64,000 nt of DNA from a virus. Taxonomy: Duplodnaviria; Caudoviricetes. Made by a program: the position numbers and the translations under genes. Below the pieces are notes generated by a model. That model had not been told where the DNA came from and did no database searches. It was given only the letters and a program-made list of their open reading frames with translations. Location of the stretch: positions 12,897-76,896 of the IMG/VR virus record IMGVR_UViG_3300044522_000179; one strand, 5' to 3'. Below are positions 45,752-56,361 of the stretch, piece by piece; within the stretch, counting starts at the first letter, position 1; each line of letters starts with the position of its first letter.

Positions 45752-46867
45752 TTAGCCACGGCTATAAGGTGAGAATGGTGAGAAACCAAATGGTGAGAAA
45801 CCAAATGGTGAGAAACCAAACGGTGAGAAACCAAACGGTGAGAAACCAAACGGAGAAAATCCAAATACTCCAAATGGGGAGAATCCAAATACTCCGAACG
45901 GAGAGAAACCAAATACTGCAAATGGAGAGAATCCAAATACTGCAAATGGTGTAAACGAGAATGCTGATGTAATTGATCCAGATGCTGCAGAAGTTGAAGA
46001 ACTTCCATTTGCATTGTCAGCACGGACTGTGTATGTCTGGGCTGTTCCAGATTCTTGTGAAACAACTACTGATGTAGAGCCTGTGTTTCCAGTTTTTCCA
46101 TCAGAACATGTCCAATAGTAATTTGTAATTGCAGATCCACCATTTGCTGGTGCTGACCATGAAACTGTATCATTTGCAGTTGCTGCTGCTCCCTGCGCTG
46201 CTGCGCCACCTACTGCTGCTGTAGTTGCTGTTGGAGCAGATGGAGTGTTTGGCACAGTTGTTGCAGTAATTGTATTAGATGCTGAAGAGTATGTTGAGTC
46301 TCCATTTGCATTTGTTGCTTTAACTGTAAAAGTGTAGGCAGTATTTGATGAAAGACCTGCAACTGATATTGGACTTGTTGCACCAGTACCAGTATGTGAC
46401 CCAGATGACAACACTGTATAACCAGTAATTGCAGATCCACCTGTTGTACCAGCAGTAAATGTTACTGAGGCTAAACCATTGTTAAACGCTCTTGTTGATG
46501 GACTATTTGTTGCAGTTCCAATTGTTGGTGCTTGAGGTACTGTTGTAACTGTTACAGAGTTAGATGCAGCAGATGCTGGACCAGTTCCTTCAGCGTTAGT
46601 TCCTGTTACTGTAAAAGTTGCTGTTGCTGCTGAAGCAATTCCAGTTACAATAATTGGAGATGATGCCCCAGTTGCTGTTTGTCCTGTGCTTGCTGTTACA
46701 GTAAAAGATGTCGCAGCATTAGGCCCTGTAGGGGTAAATGTTACTGATACAGCGCCATTGTCATAAGGACGGGCTGTTCCAACATTTGTTGCTGTACCTA
46801 TCGTTGGTGCATATGGGGTAAGGAAGTCATTTGCTCCCTGACTCATTCTACCTGCTTGCTTTGACAT
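45752..46867 (-). CDS. fibronectin type III repeat virion protein with C-terminal FGFSP repeats
   Basis: Three FN3-like units (P.APT...GGSAIT.Y...YTFTV.A.NA.G) followed by a Phe-rich tail. Confidence 0.85.
   Translation of the reverse strand: MSKQAGRMSQGANDFLTPYAPTIGTATNVGTARPYDNGAVSVTFTPTGPNAATSFTVTASTGQTATGASSPIIVTGIASAATATFTVTGTNAEGTGPASAASNSVTVTTVPQAPTIGTATNSPSTRAFNNGLASVTFTAGTTGGSAITGYTVLSSGSHTGTGATSPISVAGLSSNTAYTFTVKATNANGDSTYSSASNTITATTVPNTPSAPTATTAAVGGAAAQGAAATANDTVSWSAPANGGSAITNYYWTCSDGKTGNTGSTSVVVSQESGTAQTYTVRADNANGSSSTSAASGSITSAFSFTPFAVFGFSPFAVFGFSPFGVFGFSPFGVFGFSPFGFSPFGFSPFGFSPFGFSPFGFSPFSPYSRG
45755..45963 (-). repeat. coding tandem repeats: 4 x F(A/G)VFGFSP + 5 x FGFSP
   Basis: 24-bp and 15-bp units (ggtgagaaaccaaa(t/c)) visible in the DNA. 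Confidence 0.95.
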
Positions 46868-46897
46868 ATTTAATCTCCCTTGTTTCTTTAATTTTTA

Positions 46898-48685
46898 TTA
46901 TGCTGACAAATCTCCGAAGACTAACCATCCTGCTGCAGTCTTCATTGCTGTAACTACTGAGTTTGTAGTTCTAAACTTAAGTCCTGGTGTTCCTACTACG
47001 CTGTTGGTTGCAGCAAATGATGCTCCAGTTCCTGATGCTTGGTAGAAATCAATTGACTGACCAGTAGAGTATCCTGATGCAGGAAGAGTAATGACTACTG
47101 TTCCAGCAACTGGTATAAACTTATCTTGTTCTCCTGCTGCAAGTGTTCCTGTTGCTGCAAAAGATGATCCAAATGCTGTTATAGAAGGAACTCCGACCTT
47201 TGTTTGTGTACCGTCTGAAAATACGATACCAGCAGATGGAGTTACTGTTGTTGCTTCAAATGCTGCAACCTTAAGATCATCAAGTGATCCCTCTGTAAAG
47301 TCTACTGTTGTTGAAGGCTCTGTAGTGACTCCCTTGAACAACTTCCACTTAGCATCAGATACATCTCTAACAAGACCTGCATGCTTATTTGCACCATCAT
47401 TGTAACCAACGACAAGACCTAAGTCTACGGTGTTTGCTGCATTTTGGTGAGCAAGTTGAAGCATGTTATCTTCGATTGTAATAGATGTTGCTGATGCATT
47501 AAATGTTGTACCGTTTACAGTTAAGTTTCCATTAACAACAACATCGTTTGTTGATGTTACTGTTCCTGTAAATGTTGGTGCAGAAAGATTAGCCTTAAGA
47601 TCAAGCGCTGTTTGTGTAGCAGTTGATACTGGCTTGTTTGCATCTGATGTATTATCAACAGATCCAAGCCCAACCATAGTTGATGTGATACCAGAAACAG
47701 TACCTGTAAATGTTGGTGAAGCAAGTGGTGACTTTAGATCAAGGGCAGTCTGAGTTGCTGTAGAAACTGGCTTGTTAGCATCTGAAGTATTGTCAACATT
47801 TGCAAGGCCTACTGAAGACTTTGTTAGTGCTGCTACTGCAGTTGTTACTGCTCCGTCAGCATATGTCTTAGTTGCTAATGCTGCAGTGTCTTCGATACCG
47901 TGAACATTTGTTGTATCAGCATTGTGATCTGAAATCTTTGTGTCTGCTGCAGTTCCTGCTGCAGTAATTGCTTCTGACTTTGCTGTTGTAGCAACGCCTT
48001 CTGCATATGTCTTTGTTGATAAGGCTGCTGCATCTGCAATACCGTGCACATTTAATGTAACGGCAGCGTGGTCAGTAATATCCTGCATTTCTGCAAGAAG
48101 TGCAGTATTTGCAATTCCATGAACTGATGTTGTAACAGAAGCATGGTTTGTTATGTCTGTAAGTCTAGCAAGTAGTGCTGTATCTGTAATTCCATGCACA
48201 TCTGTTGTGTCTTCCCTGTGACTTTCTATATTTGCGGTAGTTGCTAGAAGTGAAGTATCTGCAATTCCGTGAATGCTTGTTGAGTCGTTTGAGTGTGTTG
48301 TAACTGATGAATCTGCATATGACTGTGTTGCAAGTAGTGCTGTATTTGCAATACCGTGAATATTTGTTTGATCTGTTTCATGAGTAGAAAGGGCTGTTCC
48401 TGTAGCAGTAATTGCTGTGTTCATTGTTGTTAAAAATGCTGGGTCATCTCCAATTGAATATGCCAACTCATTAAGAGTATTTAGAAGATCTGGGGCACCG
48501 TCAACAATTGCTGCTAGTTCGGCTGCATTAGCAAAATACTGTAGGGCTGACCATGTTGATGATCCGTTACCCATCTTAAACTTACTTGTGTCGGTCTCAA
48601 AACCGATTTCTCCTGCTGCGAGGATTGGGTTAGCAGCCGTCCATTGTGCTGCAGTACCTCTGCGCTGTTGCATTCTTGTTGCCAT
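46898..48685 (-). CDS. tail fibre protein (Mtd-N-like N-terminus, His-Gly repeats, VDNTSD repeats)
   Basis: QRRGTAAQWTAANPILAAGEIGFETDT; 6 x H-x8-HGI.(D/N); 2 x VGL..VDNTSDANKPVS. Confidence 0.85.
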   Translation of the reverse strand: MATRMQQRRGTAAQWTAANPILAAGEIGFETDTSKFKMGNGSSTWSALQYFANAAELAAIVDGAPDLLNTLNELAYSIGDDPAFLTTMNTAITATGTALSTHETDQTNIHGIANTALLATQSYADSSVTTHSNDSTSIHGIADTSLLATTANIESHREDTTDVHGITDTALLARLTDITNHASVTTSVHGIANTALLAEMQDITDHAAVTLNVHGIADAAALSTKTYAEGVATTAKSEAITAAGTAADTKISDHNADTTNVHGIEDTAALATKTYADGAVTTAVAALTKSSVGLANVDNTSDANKPVSTATQTALDLKSPLASPTFTGTVSGITSTMVGLGSVDNTSDANKPVSTATQTALDLKANLSAPTFTGTVTSTNDVVVNGNLTVNGTTFNASATSITIEDNMLQLAHQNAANTVDLGLVVGYNDGANKHAGLVRDVSDAKWKLFKGVTTEPSTTVDFTEGSLDDLKVAAFEATTVTPSAGIVFSDGTQTKVGVPSITAFGSSFAATGTLAAGEQDKFIPVAGTVVITLPASGYSTGQSIDFYQASGTGASFAATNSVVGTPGLKFRTTNSVVTAMKTAAGWLVFGDLSA

Positions 48686-48742
48686 TTATTATCTCCTTTA
48701 TGGGGGCTGCCCATTAACTTATCTTATTATAACACCCAATTT

Positions 48743-54819: not shown

Positions 54820-54820
54820 A

Positions 54821-55066
54821 CTACCACTTACCTAAAGGACATGTTGCTAACTGTAACTTTGTTTTTGCTGCCATAAAACATCCACATTTTTTGCATTGCT
54901 TTGTTAATTTTATTAACTCTGGACAAGATTTACAAATACTATATCTTTCATTAGATAAAGACTCTTCTGCCCATTCTGTATTTGGATTAACCAAATCTAA
55001 AGGACTAACCAAAGAATATTTATTATTTTGAATTACTTGTTTTATACTTTCTTGGCTATCTGTCAT
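54821..55066 (-). CDS. small Cys-rich protein
   Basis: RYSICKSCPE...QCKKCGCFM..KTKL..A.CPLGKW; own TGGTAAAAT promoter and GGGAG SD. Confidence 0.75.
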   Translation of the reverse strand: MTDSQESIKQVIQNNKYSLVSPLDLVNPNTEWAEESLSNERYSICKSCPELIKLTKQCKKCGCFMAAKTKLQLATCPLGKW

Positions 55067-55107
55067 TTTTACTCCCTATTTATTGTAATACTAATTTTAC
55101 CATATTT

Positions 55108-56361
55108 CTATTCTCTTGTATAAGGCGAGAATGGTGCAAATGAGAATGGTGTTGGATCAGGTGTAGGTGTAACAGGTGCTACAGGTGCTACAGGTGCTAC
55201 AGGTGCTACAGGTGCTACAGGTGCTACAGGTGCCTCTCCTGGAGAGAATGGTGAAAATCCAAATACTGTAAATGCTGCTGGAGGTGTACAATCCTGTGTG
55301 TCTGAATCTGTGGTTGTCGTAACAATTGGATCTGGGTTTGGAGAACATCCACTTGCGGTTTGGGTTGTAGTAGCAGTTCTAGTTCTTGTTTGGGCAAATT
55401 CATCTGGGCCACCAACTCTTACACAAGCACCCCAAGCACCCCAAGCACCGTAAGTTGTTGTTGATGTCCATGTAGGTGTACATGGAACTGGAGTAGGTGC
55501 TACAGGTGCAACTGGTGCAACTGGTGCAACTGGTGCAACACAACTTGTTGATGGATATCCTGAACTACTTGCTGCAGTAATGTTAGTTGCAGTTGGATAT
55601 GTTGCTAATAAATTATCTAATGCCTGTCCTGATGTTGCTCCTGTGTCAGTAACTCTAGTTCCACCAACACAACCAGCAATATACCAAGTTGTTGCAACAG
55701 GTGTAGGTGTAGGTGTTGTACAAGTTACTGATGGATATCCTGAAGAACTTGCTGCAGTAATATTGGTTGCAGTTGGATATGTTGCTAATAAATTATCATA
55801 TGCCTGGCCTGATGTTGCTCCTGTGTCAGTAACTGTAGTTCCACCAACACAACCAGAGATATACCAAGTTGTTGCTACAGGAGTAGGGGCTACAGGTGCA
55901 ACGGGTGCAACAGGTGCAACTGGTGCAACGGGAGTACAATCTCTTGATTCTGAGTCTGTATATGTTGTAACAATTGGATCTGGATTTGGAGTACATCCAG
56001 TTGCAGTTTGAGTTGCAGTAGCCAATCTAGTTCTTGTTTCATAGAAGTCATCTGGTCCTCCCATTCTTACACAAGCACCCCAAGCACCCCACTCACCGTA
56101 AGTTGTTGTTGTTGTCCATGTTGGAACACACTCTGATATTGTAGGTGTTACAGGAGTAACTGGAGTTACGGGAGTAACTGGAGTAACTGGAGTTACGGGA
56201 GTAACTGGAGTAACTGGAGTTACAGGAGTAGGTGCTACAGGAGTAGGTGCTACAGGAGTAGGTGCTACAGGAGTAGGTGCTACAGGAGTAGGTGCTACAG
56301 GAGTAGGAGTTGCTGCTAAAAATATTCCTATACCACTTGGGCCACGAAATAATGGACTCAT
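55108..56361 (-). CDS. Pro/Thr-rich mucin-like virion protein with thrombospondin-like repeats
   Basis: (PTPVA)n, (TPV)n, (PVA)n linkers; A-B-B-A Cys domains; C-terminal FSPYTRE. Confidence 0.8.

What the first reader, a model, noticed from the sequence alone, without database searches (positions are those of the whole stretch)
45752..56361. Two unrelated virion-type proteins share the same C-terminal tag, and each heads its own tailoring operon
Seen: the FN3 protein ends AFSFTP-FAVFGFSP...FSP-YSRG. The Pro/Thr-rich protein about 9 kb away ends [12 protein letters not shown]...[12 protein letters not shown]. Their bodies are otherwise unrelated. Each gene directly follows a tail-fibre gene and precedes a TGGTAnAnT-promoted operon of small Cys protein + 2OG oxygenase(s) + transferase. 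Inference: a general phage system in which an F-S-P tag acts as a recognition, assembly or modification signal for enzymatic decoration of virion appendages with interchangeable chemistry (sulfate vs GlcNAc). I know of no description of this.
Basis: partly seen in the sequence, partly recalled or inferred. Interest (0 to 1): 0.92.

Follow-up and report, generated by a model that had tools for sequence, protein, structure and literature searches.

The report
Shared Phe-Pro repeat tail on phage appendages
Two unrelated appendage proteins of an uncultured phage end in the same phenylalanine- and proline-rich repeat tail, which in related phages always travels with prolyl-hydroxylase-like genes and is usually followed by a self-cleaving intein-like domain, pointing to a possible substrate for the long-unexplained oxygenases of phages.

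Summary
P0001 (45752-46867, minus strand, FN3 domains) and P0002 (55108-56361, minus strand, Pro/Thr-rich) are the only two ORFs in the 76.9-kb genome that end in F[SA]PFSPY[ST]R after FGFSP-type repeats.

The "tag" is the end of a widespread C-terminal module of Phe-rich repeats. At least 472 metagenomic proteins carry it. In 87 of the 120 listed, a Hint/intein-like domain follows it. The window's two proteins are short forms that stop about where Hint cleavage would leave the long forms.

Proline-containing repeats co-occur with 2OG/Fe(II) oxygenase genes. 43 of 43 distinct Pro-repeat genes have an oxygenase gene within 7 kb downstream, against 0 of 13 with proline-free (FGA)n repeats. The repeat type switches at least 4 to 7 times on two trees. 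The oxygenases look like prolyl hydroxylases. Physical linkage in one exchangeable cassette is not excluded.

The DUF6171 / PHD-like oxygenase / GlcNAc-transferase operon is not tied to the tag. The TGGTAnAnT motif is a genome-wide extended -10 element.

Best reading: the tails are prolyl-hydroxylated terminal modules. Nothing has been tested biochemically.

The parts
56380..57138 (-). 252-aa fibre-related protein directly upstream of P0002
   Evidence: phrog_5906, E 1e-25. Shares a domain with the Mtd_N fibre, phmmer E 1e-21. Homologues in 52 of 80 loci.
55108..56361 (-). P0002: 417-aa Pro/Thr/Val-rich modular protein with Cys modules, carrying the tag. FGFSPFSP lies at about 55240-55263 and the terminal [12 protein letters not shown] at 55111-55146.
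   Evidence: Translation. Motif positions. Tandem repeats of 9, 15, 27 and 180 nt. Weak TSP1-like Pfam hit, below cut-off.
54821..55066 (-). 81-aa Cys-containing DUF6171 protein
   Evidence: Pfam PF19668, 31.9 bits against a cut-off of 27. phrog_13558. Found in 24 of 80 loci.
54259..54819 (-). PHD-like 2OG/Fe(II) oxygenase ('2OGc')
   Evidence: AF2 model with pLDDT 83.9. Top Foldseek PDB hits are HIF prolyl hydroxylase 2, E 3e-7, TM about 0.6. Invariant H97, D99 and H143. The Pfam hit is only weak.
53309..54262 (-). GlcNAc-transferase of Pfam family PF11397
   Evidence: Pfam E 4e-22, 79.5 bits against a cut-off of 21. phrog_24687 glycosyltransferase.
46898..48685 (-). 595-aa tail fibre with an Mtd_N N-terminal domain, directly upstream of P0001
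   Evidence: Pfam Mtd_N E 4e-14. 32 PHROG families match, many of them tail-fibre families.
45752..46867 (-). P0001: 371-aa FN3-repeat protein. The Phe/Pro repeat tail with the terminal FSPYSRG spans about 45755-45961.
   Evidence: Translation. Pfam fn3 E 7e-12. Motif positions. Tandem arrays at 45774-45949. 344 relatives in IMG/VR.
45678..45717 (-). Terminator-like hairpin (45717-45699) followed by the extended -10 element TGGTATACT (45686-45678), between P0001 and the oxygenase genes
44994..45653 (-). 'g219': 2OG/Fe(II)-oxygenase-fold protein
   Evidence: AF2 model with pLDDT 88.5. Foldseek best hits are 3bvc and 2rg4, then prolyl 4-hydroxylases 4iw3 and 6t8m and PHD2. No Pfam or NCBIfam hit. 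phrog_2696.
44365..45012 (-). 'g215': paralogue of g219
   Evidence: phmmer E 3e-45 against g219. Shares the invariant His residues in alignment A1.
44237..44380 (-). 47-aa ORF with four Cys. A candidate small protein; not shown to be a gene.
   Evidence: ORF list. No similarity to DUF6171. No NCBIfam hit.
43641..44240 (-). 199-aa sulfotransferase-like protein, specific to this genome among those examined
   Evidence: Pfam Sulfotransfer_1, 27.6 bits against a cut-off of 22. 0 hits in 80 loci. No relative in viral contigs.
41505..43535 (-). Class II (B12-type) ribonucleotide reductase, lying inside the cassette
   Evidence: Pfam RNR_Alpha and RNR-II_ins_dom. 96-99% identical to most relatives in the table and 85-86% to the rest, while neighbouring genes are 26-88% identical.
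40900..41505 (-). '2OGb': 2OG/Fe(II) oxygenase
   Evidence: Pfam 2OG-FeII_Oxy_3 E 1e-4, below cut-off. Paralogue of 2OGa, E 8e-13.
40398..40907 (-). '2OGa': prolyl-hydroxylase-like 2OG/Fe(II) oxygenase
   Evidence: Pfam PF13640, 46.1 bits against a cut-off of 27. Best PDB sequence hits are prolyl 3-hydroxylase 1 (9e-6) and 'Prolyl 4-hydroxylase, alpha subunit domain protein' / procollagen-proline dioxygenase entries 3itq and 5hv0 (1e-4).

Best explanation
P0001 and P0002 are two modular, fast-evolving appendage proteins encoded in the tail-fibre gene cluster of a 77-kb tailed phage from an uncultured, apparently aquatic lineage.

Both end in the same C-terminal module. It consists of Phe-rich, proline-containing repeats (FGVFGFSP / FGFSP) closed by F[SA]PFSPY[ST]R. 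The module is ancient and portable. It is attached to FN3, Pro/Thr-rich, Cys-rich and PASTA-type bodies.

In most relatives a self-cleaving Hint (intein-like) domain follows the module. Its Cys1 or Ser1 lies 1-11 residues after the last repeat. The mature long forms should therefore end about where the window's short forms end (inferred from intein and Hedgehog chemistry).

I propose that the prolines of these repeats are hydroxylated by the phage's own prolyl-hydroxylase-like 2OG/Fe(II) oxygenases (g219, g215, 2OGb, 2OGa). In some phages the hydroxylated tails would then be further decorated, by the sulfotransferase here and by a GlcNAc-transferase in L046.

The second operon (DUF6171 + PHD-like oxygenase + PF11397 GlcNAc-transferase) resembles the PhyA/Gnt1 hydroxyproline-GlcNAc pathway. 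It more probably decorates the Pro/Thr spacers of P0002-type proteins than the tag itself.

The modified tail would be the shared terminal anchoring, assembly or host-contact element of both proteins. That would explain why the last residues of the two proteins match within each genome.

Shown: the architecture, the distribution, the co-occurrence and the enzyme folds.
Inferred: hydroxylation, cleavage, virion location and the role of the tail.
For: (1) Shared end.
- It is unique in the genome and kept with different codons.
- In 5 genomes with two short-form proteins, the last 7 residues agree 5.4 of 7 within a genome against 2.65 of 7 between genomes.
- Hint paralogues within a genome are 53-75% identical with many synonymous differences, so this is not recent gene conversion.

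(2) Module distribution.
- 472 proteins have E <= 1e-3 to the tail alone. Only the 8000 candidates sharing most words were scored.
- Of the 120 listed, 32 are short forms, 87 have 120 or more residues after the repeats, and 1 is intermediate. Of the 87, 51 end in HN, 30 are HD-like and 6 are other.

(3) The C-terminal domain is Hint.
- A profile of 21 domains hits inteins (6e-7, 3e-6), a bacterial intein-like domain (2lwy, 3e-5) and the gp41-1 intein (1.7e-4).
- Pfam Intein_splicing matches 7 of 21 members.
- Cys or Ser is aligned at position 1, and the Cys class has a C-terminal HN.

(4) Co-occurrence.
- Among 61 distinct FN3 proteins from 80 loci, 58 have at least 3 kb downstream.
- 43 of 43 with Pro-containing repeats have at least one oxygenase gene within 7 kb. 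0 of 13 with (FGA)n repeats do, and 0 of 2 without repeats do.
- On the g1237 tree (58 rows) each trait changes 7 times, and 6 of 6 independent pairs agree, p 0.031.
- On the tree of the FN3 domains of the same gene (75 rows) the repeat type changes 6 times, at least 4 of them forced by supported branches.
- The oxygenases lie on both sides of the conserved RNR gene.
- A separate lineage (L070, L071, L081) has FF[SAG]PP repeats followed by four oxygenase genes.

(5) Enzymes.
- 2OGa's nearest solved relatives by sequence are peptidyl-prolyl hydroxylases.
- The 2OGc model matches PHD2 best.
- The g219 model matches 2OG oxygenases, including P. putida P4H and Dictyostelium PhyA.
- Hydroxylated Skp1 is the substrate of Gnt1 (PMC3515798, passage).
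Against: No biochemical or proteomic data exist, and no cultured relative was found.

The repeats, their Hint domain and the oxygenase genes are neighbours and move as one cassette.
- Hint domains of the FGA type are mostly closest to other FGA-type Hint domains.
- The window's FN3-to-2OGa block resembles L003, L005, L007 and L010, while its g1237 is 83% identical to FGA-type L011.
- The perfect co-occurrence could therefore be physical linkage. The number of truly independent events is smaller than the raw counts suggest.

g219 and g215 lack a canonical HxD motif. Their invariant residues are H130, H132, H141 and H180. Their TM-scores to known oxygenases are only 0.4-0.63, so their chemistry is open.

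2OG oxygenases also act on nucleic acids, lipids and small molecules.

The FSP context (Ser-Pro-Phe-Gly) is not a known P4H motif (my knowledge).

FSP tags on second proteins are not significantly enriched: 6 of 24 against 0 of 11 loci.

Virion location of either protein is inferred from gene position only.
Confidence: 0.5

Rival explanations
1. Linkage only. The Phe-rich tail, with or without Hint, is a purely structural or docking element, for example a hydrophobic anchor to a common site on the virion or an oligomerising stalk. It is never modified. The oxygenases act on something else, such as host proteins, nucleic acids or small molecules. They merely sit in the same exchangeable cassette.
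For: - The repeat, Hint domain and oxygenases are contiguous and swap together.
- In FGA-type proteins the same position is filled by a proline-free Gly-X-Y-like (GAF)n run, which Pfam weakly calls collagen (E 1e-4, below cut-off). This fits a stalk or spacer role.
- Matching ends within a genome are what co-evolution with one docking site would give.
- Phage 2OG oxygenases have no established substrate. PMC9301287 says the use of viral prolyl 4-hydroxylase 'remains cryptic' (passage).
Against: - There are no exceptions among 58 distinct genes, despite heavy mosaicism, at least 4 to 7 switches, and oxygenase genes on both sides of an RNR gene that is itself 85-99% identical across the relatives compared.
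- The variable that tracks the oxygenases is the presence of proline in the repeat.
- The best-matching known enzymes are peptidyl-prolyl hydroxylases.
Confidence: 0.27
2. The F-S-P tag is a leader-like recognition signal that recruits whichever tailoring operon follows the gene (sulfation after P0001, GlcNAc after P0002). The enzymes then decorate the protein body.
For: - Both tagged genes are followed by oxygenase and transferase genes.
- L046 has a GlcNAc-transferase inside the oxygenase cluster after the FN3 gene.
- The ends match within genomes.
Against: - The DUF6171/oxygenase/GlcNAcT operon occurs in genomes with no FSP tag. GlcNAcT is in 5 of 11 FGA-type against 2 of 24 FSP-type loci.
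- Tagged second proteins in L036, L066 and L082 have no such operon next to them.
- In 87 of 120 listed proteins the 'tag' is internal in the precursor, followed by Hint.
- The sulfotransferase is found in this genome only.
- The promoter motif is generic.
Confidence: 0.1
3. Hedgehog-like ligation. The point of the module is the Hint domain. It turns the C-terminus of the repeat tail into a (thio)ester that is transferred to a nucleophile, such as a virion protein, a lipid or a cell-wall component. The short forms, as in the window, would be degenerate or work non-covalently.
For: - Canonical Gly|Cys junctions (FGG|C, SPG|C, RFG|C) and C-terminal HN, or Ser1 with HD (no Asn), i.e. features expected for N-terminal cleavage only.
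- Profile hits to inteins and a BIL domain.
- BIL domains sit in hypervariable proteins and self-cleave (PMC7765530, passages).
Against: - The Hint trait changes 8 times on the g1237 tree.
- 32 of 120 listed proteins lack Hint.
- The window's genome has no Hint domain at all. The module therefore works without it.
- No adduct-recognition region was identified.
Confidence: 0.1
4. Chance or slippage artefact. Two low-complexity tails converged through replication slippage, with no shared function.
For: The P0001 tail is a near-perfect DNA tandem array, and P0002 is full of short tandem repeats.
Against: - The non-repetitive last residues are shared with different codons.
- The same module is conserved in hundreds of proteins at 55-92% identity.
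- Ends match within other genomes as well.
- FSPY occurs nowhere else in six frames of the genome.
Confidence: 0.02

Closest known systems
Mycobacteriophage virion glycosylation (Freeman et al. 2023). Seen only as a citing passage in PMC12619734; the paper itself is not held.
   Same: Two different virion proteins carry modification at their C-termini, made by phage-encoded transferases.
   Different: - There the carriers are the capsid and tail-tube subunits, and the modification is a glycan.
- Here the carriers are FN3 and Pro/Thr-rich appendage proteins.
- Here the tail is a Phe/Pro repeat, the linked enzymes are 2OG oxygenases, and most relatives add a Hint domain.
- Nothing here is shown experimentally.
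Skp1 prolyl hydroxylation and GlcNAc pathway of Dictyostelium and Toxoplasma (PhyA then Gnt1). Passages of PMC3515798.
   Same: - A PHD-type prolyl hydroxylase fold (2OGc) lies next to a PF11397 GlcNAc-transferase.
- g219 also matches PhyA structure 6t8m.
   Different: - That is a eukaryotic cytoplasmic pathway acting on one proline of one protein.
- Here the pair is in a phage operon next to proteins with dozens of prolines.
- That PF11397 is the Gnt1 family is recalled, not shown by a call.
- Acceptor specificity is untested.
Viral prolyl 4-hydroxylase of chlorella virus PBCV-1 (Eriksson et al. 1999). Seen only as cited in PMC9301287; details recalled.
   Same: A virus-encoded P4H is thought to act on proline-rich repeats of the virus's own proteins.
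   Different: - That is a giant virus of algae, and its substrates are (PAPK)n-type repeats (recalled).
- Here it is a tailed phage with FGFSP repeats and five oxygenase genes.
Bacterial intein-like (BIL) and Hint domains (PMC7765530, passages)
   Same: The domain sits in hypervariable proteins, has a Cys or Ser nucleophile and a C-terminal His-Asn in one class, and self-cleaves without splicing.
   Different: - Here the domain is terminal, with a C-extein of 0-4 residues.
- It is attached to phage appendage proteins after Phe-rich repeats.
- It is absent from the window itself.
C-terminal self-cleaving intramolecular chaperone domains of phage tailspikes and fibres (recalled; no call)
   Same: A C-terminal domain is removed by autoproteolysis after it has helped the fibre to fold.
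   Different: - The fold and chemistry differ (not Hint).
- No evidence here for a chaperone role.

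Membership tests
Hint / intein superfamily (C-terminal domain of relatives) | Sequence-profile similarity to solved inteins or BIL domains | tested here: met
   Profile A2 against PDB: intein of a DNA polymerase 6e-7, Pho RadA intein 3e-6, BIL domain 2lwy 3e-5. Pfam Intein_splicing matches 7 of 21 members, best E 2e-6.
Hint / intein superfamily (C-terminal domain of relatives) | Cys, Ser or Thr nucleophile at position 1 and a conserved Thr a few residues on (block A) | tested here: met
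   In alignment A2, Cys (11 rows) or Ser (10 rows) aligns at position 1, and Thr is invariant 5 residues later.
Hint / intein superfamily (C-terminal domain of relatives) | C-terminal His-Asn | tested here: inconclusive
   51 of the 120 listed proteins end in HN plus 0-8 residues. 30 have H/F/Y-Asp instead, and 6 have something else. Self-cleavage was not tested.
Hint / intein superfamily (the window's own P0001 and P0002) | Presence of the domain | tested here: not met
   tblastn of six Hint domains against the whole genome gave no hit better than E 0.18. Both proteins stop 7 or fewer residues after the last repeat.
2OG/Fe(II) oxygenases, prolyl-hydroxylase type | Double-stranded beta-helix fold resembling known enzymes | tested here: met
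   The g219 model (pLDDT 88.5) gives 92 PDB matches with E <= 1e-3, including P4H 4iw3, PhyA 6t8m and PHD2. The 2OGc model (pLDDT 83.9) has PHD2 as its top match, E 3e-7. 2OGa scores above the cut-off for Pfam PF13640.
2OG/Fe(II) oxygenases, prolyl-hydroxylase type | HxD/E...H iron triad and a basic residue for 2OG | tested here: inconclusive
   2OGc has invariant H97, D99 and H143 plus Arg. g219 and g215 have invariant H130, H132, H141, H180 and R191 but no clear HxD. 2OGa and 2OGb were not inspected residue by residue.
2OG/Fe(II) oxygenases, prolyl-hydroxylase type | Peptidyl-proline as substrate | not testable with these tools
   Only indirect evidence: the nearest solved relatives are prolyl hydroxylases, and the genes co-occur with Pro-containing repeats.
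PF11397 GlcNAc-transferase family | Pfam model above the gathering score | tested here: met
   79.5 bits against a cut-off of 21, residues 52-279. No solved relative by sequence.
PF11397 GlcNAc-transferase family | Transfer of GlcNAc to hydroxyproline | not testable with these tools
   Inference from the neighbouring PHD-like oxygenase only.
PAPS-dependent sulfotransferases (Sulfotransfer_1) | Pfam model above the gathering score | tested here: met
   27.6 bits against a cut-off of 22, but only residues 48-133 match profile positions 87-184 of 255. The PDB hit is insignificant, E 0.42.
Mycobacteriophage-type virion glycosylation | Modified C-terminal tails on capsid and tail-tube subunits | tested here: not met
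   The tag is on neither the major head protein (32122-33291) nor any other ORF of the genome. Only P0001 and P0002 carry it.

The most novel reading that the evidence does not exclude
A large uncultured phage lineage runs an extensin- or Skp1-like protein-modification system on its own appendages.
- Phe/Pro repeat tails are prolyl-hydroxylated by up to five phage oxygenases.
- They are then glycosylated or sulfated with exchangeable transferases.
- In most members a Hedgehog-like Hint domain converts the end of the modified tail into a (thio)ester that ligates the appendage covalently to the virion or to a host envelope component.

If true, this would give phage 2OG oxygenases their first defined substrate class. 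It would also be the first Hint-mediated attachment in a virus particle.
Probability: 0.12. Interest if true: 0.92.

Novelty: new variant of a known kind. Interest (0 to 1): 0.74.

Why it matters
2OG/Fe(II) oxygenase and prolyl-4-hydroxylase genes are among the commonest 'auxiliary' genes of aquatic phages. [quoted passage not shown]

Here the oxygenase genes track one simple, testable feature, namely proline in a short repeat at the end of two appendage proteins. There is no exception among the 58 distinct genes with enough downstream sequence. That turns the open question into an experiment with defined peptides and enzymes.

The work also uncovers a large family of phage proteins in which a Hint/intein-like domain terminates appendage proteins after Phe-rich repeats. 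I found no description of this architecture. Its modularity suggests a general way of hanging variable binding domains on a common terminal element: FN3, PASTA-type or mucin-like bodies, FSP or GAF repeats, with or without Hint.

Tried and rejected
- Close relatives among GenBank phages. megablast of the 14.5-kb region gave only a 33-nt chance hit. tblastn with P0001 and P0002 gave nothing; the low-complexity filter may hide the tails. g219 finds only 31%-identical hypothetical proteins of Synechococcus phage ACG-2014b, with no informative neighbours.
- Exact back-translated tag in IMG/VR. It gave two matches (L001, L002), both chance ORFs of 67 and 53 aa unrelated to the window.
- Sulfotransferase relatives. 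None in 80 loci or in viral contigs. The idea that the shared Tyr (SPY[ST]R) or a sugar is sulfated could therefore not be tested.
- Host. The portal is 47% identical to Streptomyces phage portals. Some tagged proteins carry PF03793 (precomputed; the name PASTA is recalled). A scan of genome contigs gave mostly generic FN3 hits, and the only hit there with four or more tail repeats and related to the window (L085) lies on an 889-bp contig of a metagenome bin. The host is left open. The isolated 'Ca. Nanopelagicales' phages are 39-kb genomes and different (PMC10202952, passages).
- The C-terminal sorting-signal idea (sortase or exosortase type) was rejected by eye. The tail has no hydrophobic helix and a Pro about every 5-8 residues.
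- The two small Cys proteins as one family: rejected.
- An RNA gene in the 660-bp gap 52646-53308: no tRNA and no credible Rfam match.
- Complex prediction with three copies of P0001 residues 205-371: no answer. It counts neither for nor against self-association.
- A single recent gene conversion as the cause of matching ends: rejected.
- Literature. No paper holds the repeat strings in a relevant sense; 5 unrelated hits. Searches on Hint plus phage fibres, P4H plus bacteriophage and BIL plus phage found no description of this architecture. The library lacks most subscription journals, and supplements were closed, so absence from print is not proven.

Full report
**1. What is there**

The window is bases 12897-76896 of a single 76,896-bp contig. 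G+C is about 37% and almost all genes lie on the minus strand.

It is a tailed-phage genome:
- portal, maturation protease and major head protein at 32-36 kb;
- DNA polymerase at 2.4-5.8 kb;
- a class II ribonucleotide reductase;
- between 46 and 60 kb, a run of tail-fibre-like genes.

The two genes of the finding lie inside that run.
- P0001 (45752-46867) has FN3 domains. Its tail is AFSFTPF-(AVFGFSP)2-(GVFGFSP)2-(FGFSP)5-FSPYSRG.
- P0002 (55108-56361) is made of TPVAP/VTP/VAP repeats and duplicated Cys modules. It ends ...[13 protein letters not shown](APV)n...[13 protein letters not shown].

A six-frame scan of the whole genome finds FSPY only at these two C-termini. FGFSP occurs only in these two ORFs.

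At the DNA level the tails share at most 28 nt at 89%. The conserved Arg uses CGT in one gene and AGA in the other. The resemblance is therefore maintained at the protein level.

**2. The tag is the end of a widespread module**

The search for related loci with P0001 found 344 related stretches among 450 candidates in IMG/VR. The best 80 were kept.

They share a strict gene order: [fibre-related protein - variable 'second protein' - DUF6171 - oxygenase - GlcNAcT] - cement-like protein - four small genes - fibre - small gene - Mtd_N fibre - FN3 protein - [g219, g215] - RNR - [2OGb, 2OGa] - a 1237-aa protein. The bracketed parts are optional.

Most FN3 homologues are longer than P0001. After the FN3 domains and a conserved TTFSF[AVT]PF they carry a repeat region and then about 170 further residues.

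That extra domain begins at junctions such as ...FGFSPG|CIHEDTLITV or ...FSFGG|CVDENTLISV and ends ...VMHNLKFY or ...ITHNK. In a second class it begins with Ser (...FMA|SLAPMTKVRMADG) and ends ...LTHDG....

A profile of 21 such domains hits solved inteins (E 6e-7, 3e-6), a bacterial intein-like domain (3e-5) and the gp41-1 intein. Pfam Intein_splicing matches 7 of the 21. It is a Hint domain.

By the established chemistry of inteins and Hedgehog, its first residue attacks the preceding peptide bond. The mature N-terminal product should therefore end 1-11 residues after the last repeat. This step is inference.

The window's genome has no Hint domain. P0001 stops 7 residues after its last repeat, so it equals the predicted mature form.

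A search of 5.8 billion proteins with the 77-residue tail alone gave 472 proteins with E <= 1e-3. Only the 8000 candidates sharing most words were scored, and only lengths of 204-650 aa were searched.

Of the 120 listed:
- 32 are short forms;
- 87 have a long C-terminal domain (51 end in HN, 30 are HD-like, 6 other);
- 1 is intermediate.

Their precomputed Pfam domains are mostly fn3. Three carry PF03793 and many carry none.

**3. Two proteins per genome share the module**

The 'second protein', in the position of P0002, is extremely variable. Its parts include:
- (TP)n, (VTPA)n, poly-Pro, (QNT)n or (TIA)n spacers;
- Cys modules;
- often an N-terminal domain that looks like PASTA by eye.

In several genomes it ends in the same module as that genome's FN3 protein:
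- both ...FNFAPWG (L036);
- both ...FSPPFR (L065);
- ...FGFFNG and ...FGFFRNQ (L066);
- ...FAPFSAWT and ...FAPFTAPD (L007);
- the same Hint subtype with the same junction in L005, L015, L031 and L034.

For the five genomes with two short forms, the last seven residues agree 5.4 of 7 on average within a genome and 2.65 of 7 between genomes.

The within-genome Hint pairs are 53-75% identical, with many synonymous differences. They are old paralogues and not fresh copies.

This concordance across 9 kb argues for a shared partner, either an enzyme or a docking site.

**4. Which enzymes go with the tag**

The repeat region comes in two kinds:
- proline-containing (FGVFGFSP, FGFSP, FGFTP, and FF[SAG]PP in a side lineage);
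- proline-free (FGA)n, which reads as Gly-Ala-Phe triplets. Pfam weakly calls it collagen (E 1e-4, below cut-off).

The 80 loci yield 61 distinct FN3 proteins. 58 of them have at least 3 kb of downstream sequence; L004, L028 and L077 were dropped for lack of it.

| Repeat kind | Distinct genes | With an oxygenase gene within 7 kb downstream |
|---|---|---|
| Pro-containing | 43 | 43 |
| (FGA)n | 13 | 0 |
| No repeat | 2 | 0 |

On a tree of the flanking 1237-aa protein (58 rows, 43 different, FastTree) both traits change 7 times. All 6 independent pairs on supported branches agree. The p value of 0.031 is the lowest reachable with 6 pairs.

On a tree of the FN3 domains of the same gene (75 rows, 17 of them FGA) the repeat type changes 6 times. 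At least 4 of these changes are forced by supported branches.

The oxygenases lie on both sides of the RNR gene.

The window itself is an example. Its 1237-aa protein is 83% identical to that of FGA-type L011. Yet it carries FSP repeats and four oxygenases that resemble those of L003, L005, L007 and L010.

The caveat is linkage.
- The repeats, Hint domain and oxygenases form one contiguous cassette.
- FGA-type Hint domains are mostly closest to other FGA-type Hint domains.
- Part of the 'switching' is therefore exchange of a whole cassette.
- Co-inheritance alone does not prove that the enzymes act on the repeats.

**5. What the enzymes are**

- g219 and g215 are paralogues (E 3e-45). Neither has a Pfam or NCBIfam hit.
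- An AlphaFold model built on 40 homologues (pLDDT 88.5) matches the 2OG-oxygenase fold. The best hits are two uncharacterised proteins (3bvc, 2rg4). Next come P. putida prolyl 4-hydroxylase, Dictyostelium PhyA and PHD2, with TM 0.4-0.63.
- Their invariant residues are H130, H132, H141, H180 and R191. There is no plain HxD, so their chemistry is least certain.
- 2OGa passes Pfam PF13640. Its nearest solved relatives by sequence are prolyl 3-hydroxylase 1 and the procollagen-proline dioxygenase entries 3itq and 5hv0.
- 2OGc, in the second operon, folds (pLDDT 83.9) like HIF prolyl hydroxylase PHD2 (E 3e-7). It has invariant H97, D99 and H143.
- Next to 2OGc lies a PF11397 GlcNAc-transferase (E 4e-22). 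A PHD-type hydroxylase followed by a GlcNAc-transferase acting on the hydroxyproline is the PhyA/Gnt1 logic of Skp1 modification (PMC3515798, passages). That PF11397 is the Gnt1 family is my recollection.

**6.

The second operon is not tied to the tag. Counts are among 35 distinct loci with the upstream region in view.

| Feature | FSP-type (24 loci) | FGA-type (11 loci) |
|---|---|---|
| Second protein with two or more FSP motifs | 6 | 0 |
| DUF6171 | 11 | 9 |
| Oxygenase upstream | 15 | 7 |
| GlcNAcT | 2 | 5 |

- Tagged second proteins in L036, L066 and L082 have no such operon.
- The operon sits after second proteins rich in Pro/Thr spacers whether or not they are tagged. These spacers are the more likely substrate. 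This is inference.
- The sulfotransferase is unique to this genome.
- The 47-aa Cys ORF and DUF6171 are unrelated.
- TGGTAnAnT is an extended -10 element found 27 times against 12 expected. 13 of these are minus-strand intergenic sites before genes of all kinds.
- A terminator-like hairpin separates P0001 from the oxygenase genes.

**7. Reading**

Most likely (about 0.5): the Phe/Pro repeat tail is a shared terminal module of two appendage proteins. Its prolines are hydroxylated by the co-inherited oxygenases, with optional further decoration. The Hint domain of relatives removes itself to expose the same end.

Rivals:
- pure linkage with an unmodified structural or docking tail (about 0.27);
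- a Hedgehog-like ligation role for Hint (about 0.1);
- chance (about 0.02).

None of these is settled without mass spectrometry.

**8. Novelty**

The components are known kinds: phage-encoded modification of virion protein C-termini, viral P4H, the PhyA/Gnt1 pair and BIL/Hint domains.

The following are not described in what I could search:
- the Phe-rich repeat module;
- its terminal Hint domain on phage appendage proteins;
- its exception-free association with oxygenase genes.

That library is incomplete and supplements were closed.

I rate it a new variant of a known kind, with high interest. It offers a defined, testable substrate for phage 2OG oxygenases, whose role is called cryptic (PMC9301287).

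Noticed in passing
window 52646-53308 (ORF 52883-53086, minus strand): The 660-bp stretch between the GlcNAc-transferase and the cement-like gene has no long minus-strand ORF. It does hold a 67-aa ORF ending ...TKKTSFEVVSDV. Near-identical ends (TKKTSFEAVSDV and similar) recur at the same place in many otherwise diverged loci. It may be a conserved small gene or a conserved non-coding element. No tRNA and no credible Rfam match.
   Followed up: partly
window 41505-43535: The class II RNR is 96-99% identical to most relatives in the table (85-86% to the rest), while flanking genes are 26-88% identical. It looks like a recombination anchor or a recently swept gene inside a mosaic region.
   Followed up: partly
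L011:76-1899: This FN3 protein carries, between two (FGA)n runs, an inserted Pro/Thr spacer and a Cys-rich module of the kind found in P0002-type proteins. Modules are shuffled between the two protein families.
   Followed up: no
L046 (about 15371-16201): A GlcNAc-transferase homologue sits between g219 and g215, directly after an FN3 protein with FGFTP repeats. This is the position where the window has its sulfotransferase.
   Followed up: no
L036:2507-3226, L065:970-1335, L066:2915-3235, L082:2074-3384, L055:1127-2599: Second proteins start with a conserved ...KGM..VP[ND]L.GL... segment that looks like a PASTA domain by eye. PF03793 is precomputed for P0061, P0069 and P0120. This hints at peptidoglycan binding and a Gram-positive host. 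The window's P0002 lacks the segment.
   Followed up: no
window 55549-55887 and the P0002 body: A 180-nt tandem duplication (1.9 copies, 92% matches) duplicates an internal module of P0002. Two further WGAWGACV...Cys modules give a weak TSP1-like Pfam hit.
   Followed up: no
window 18255-27206 and 13341-17633: Very large ORFs of 2983 aa and 1430 aa. The 1430-aa one matches a minor tail protein PHROG. The 2983-aa one was not examined.
   Followed up: no
window, whole: TGGTATAAT / TGGTATACT (extended -10) lies 7-28 nt before at least 11 minus-strand gene starts across the window. It is probably the phage's main promoter type.
   Followed up: partly
L070:1075-2205, L071:1235-2344, L081: A separate lineage has FN3 proteins with FF[SAG]PP / FFPP repeats, with or without a Cys1 Hint domain, followed by four tandem 2OG oxygenase genes and no RNR.
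   Followed up: partly
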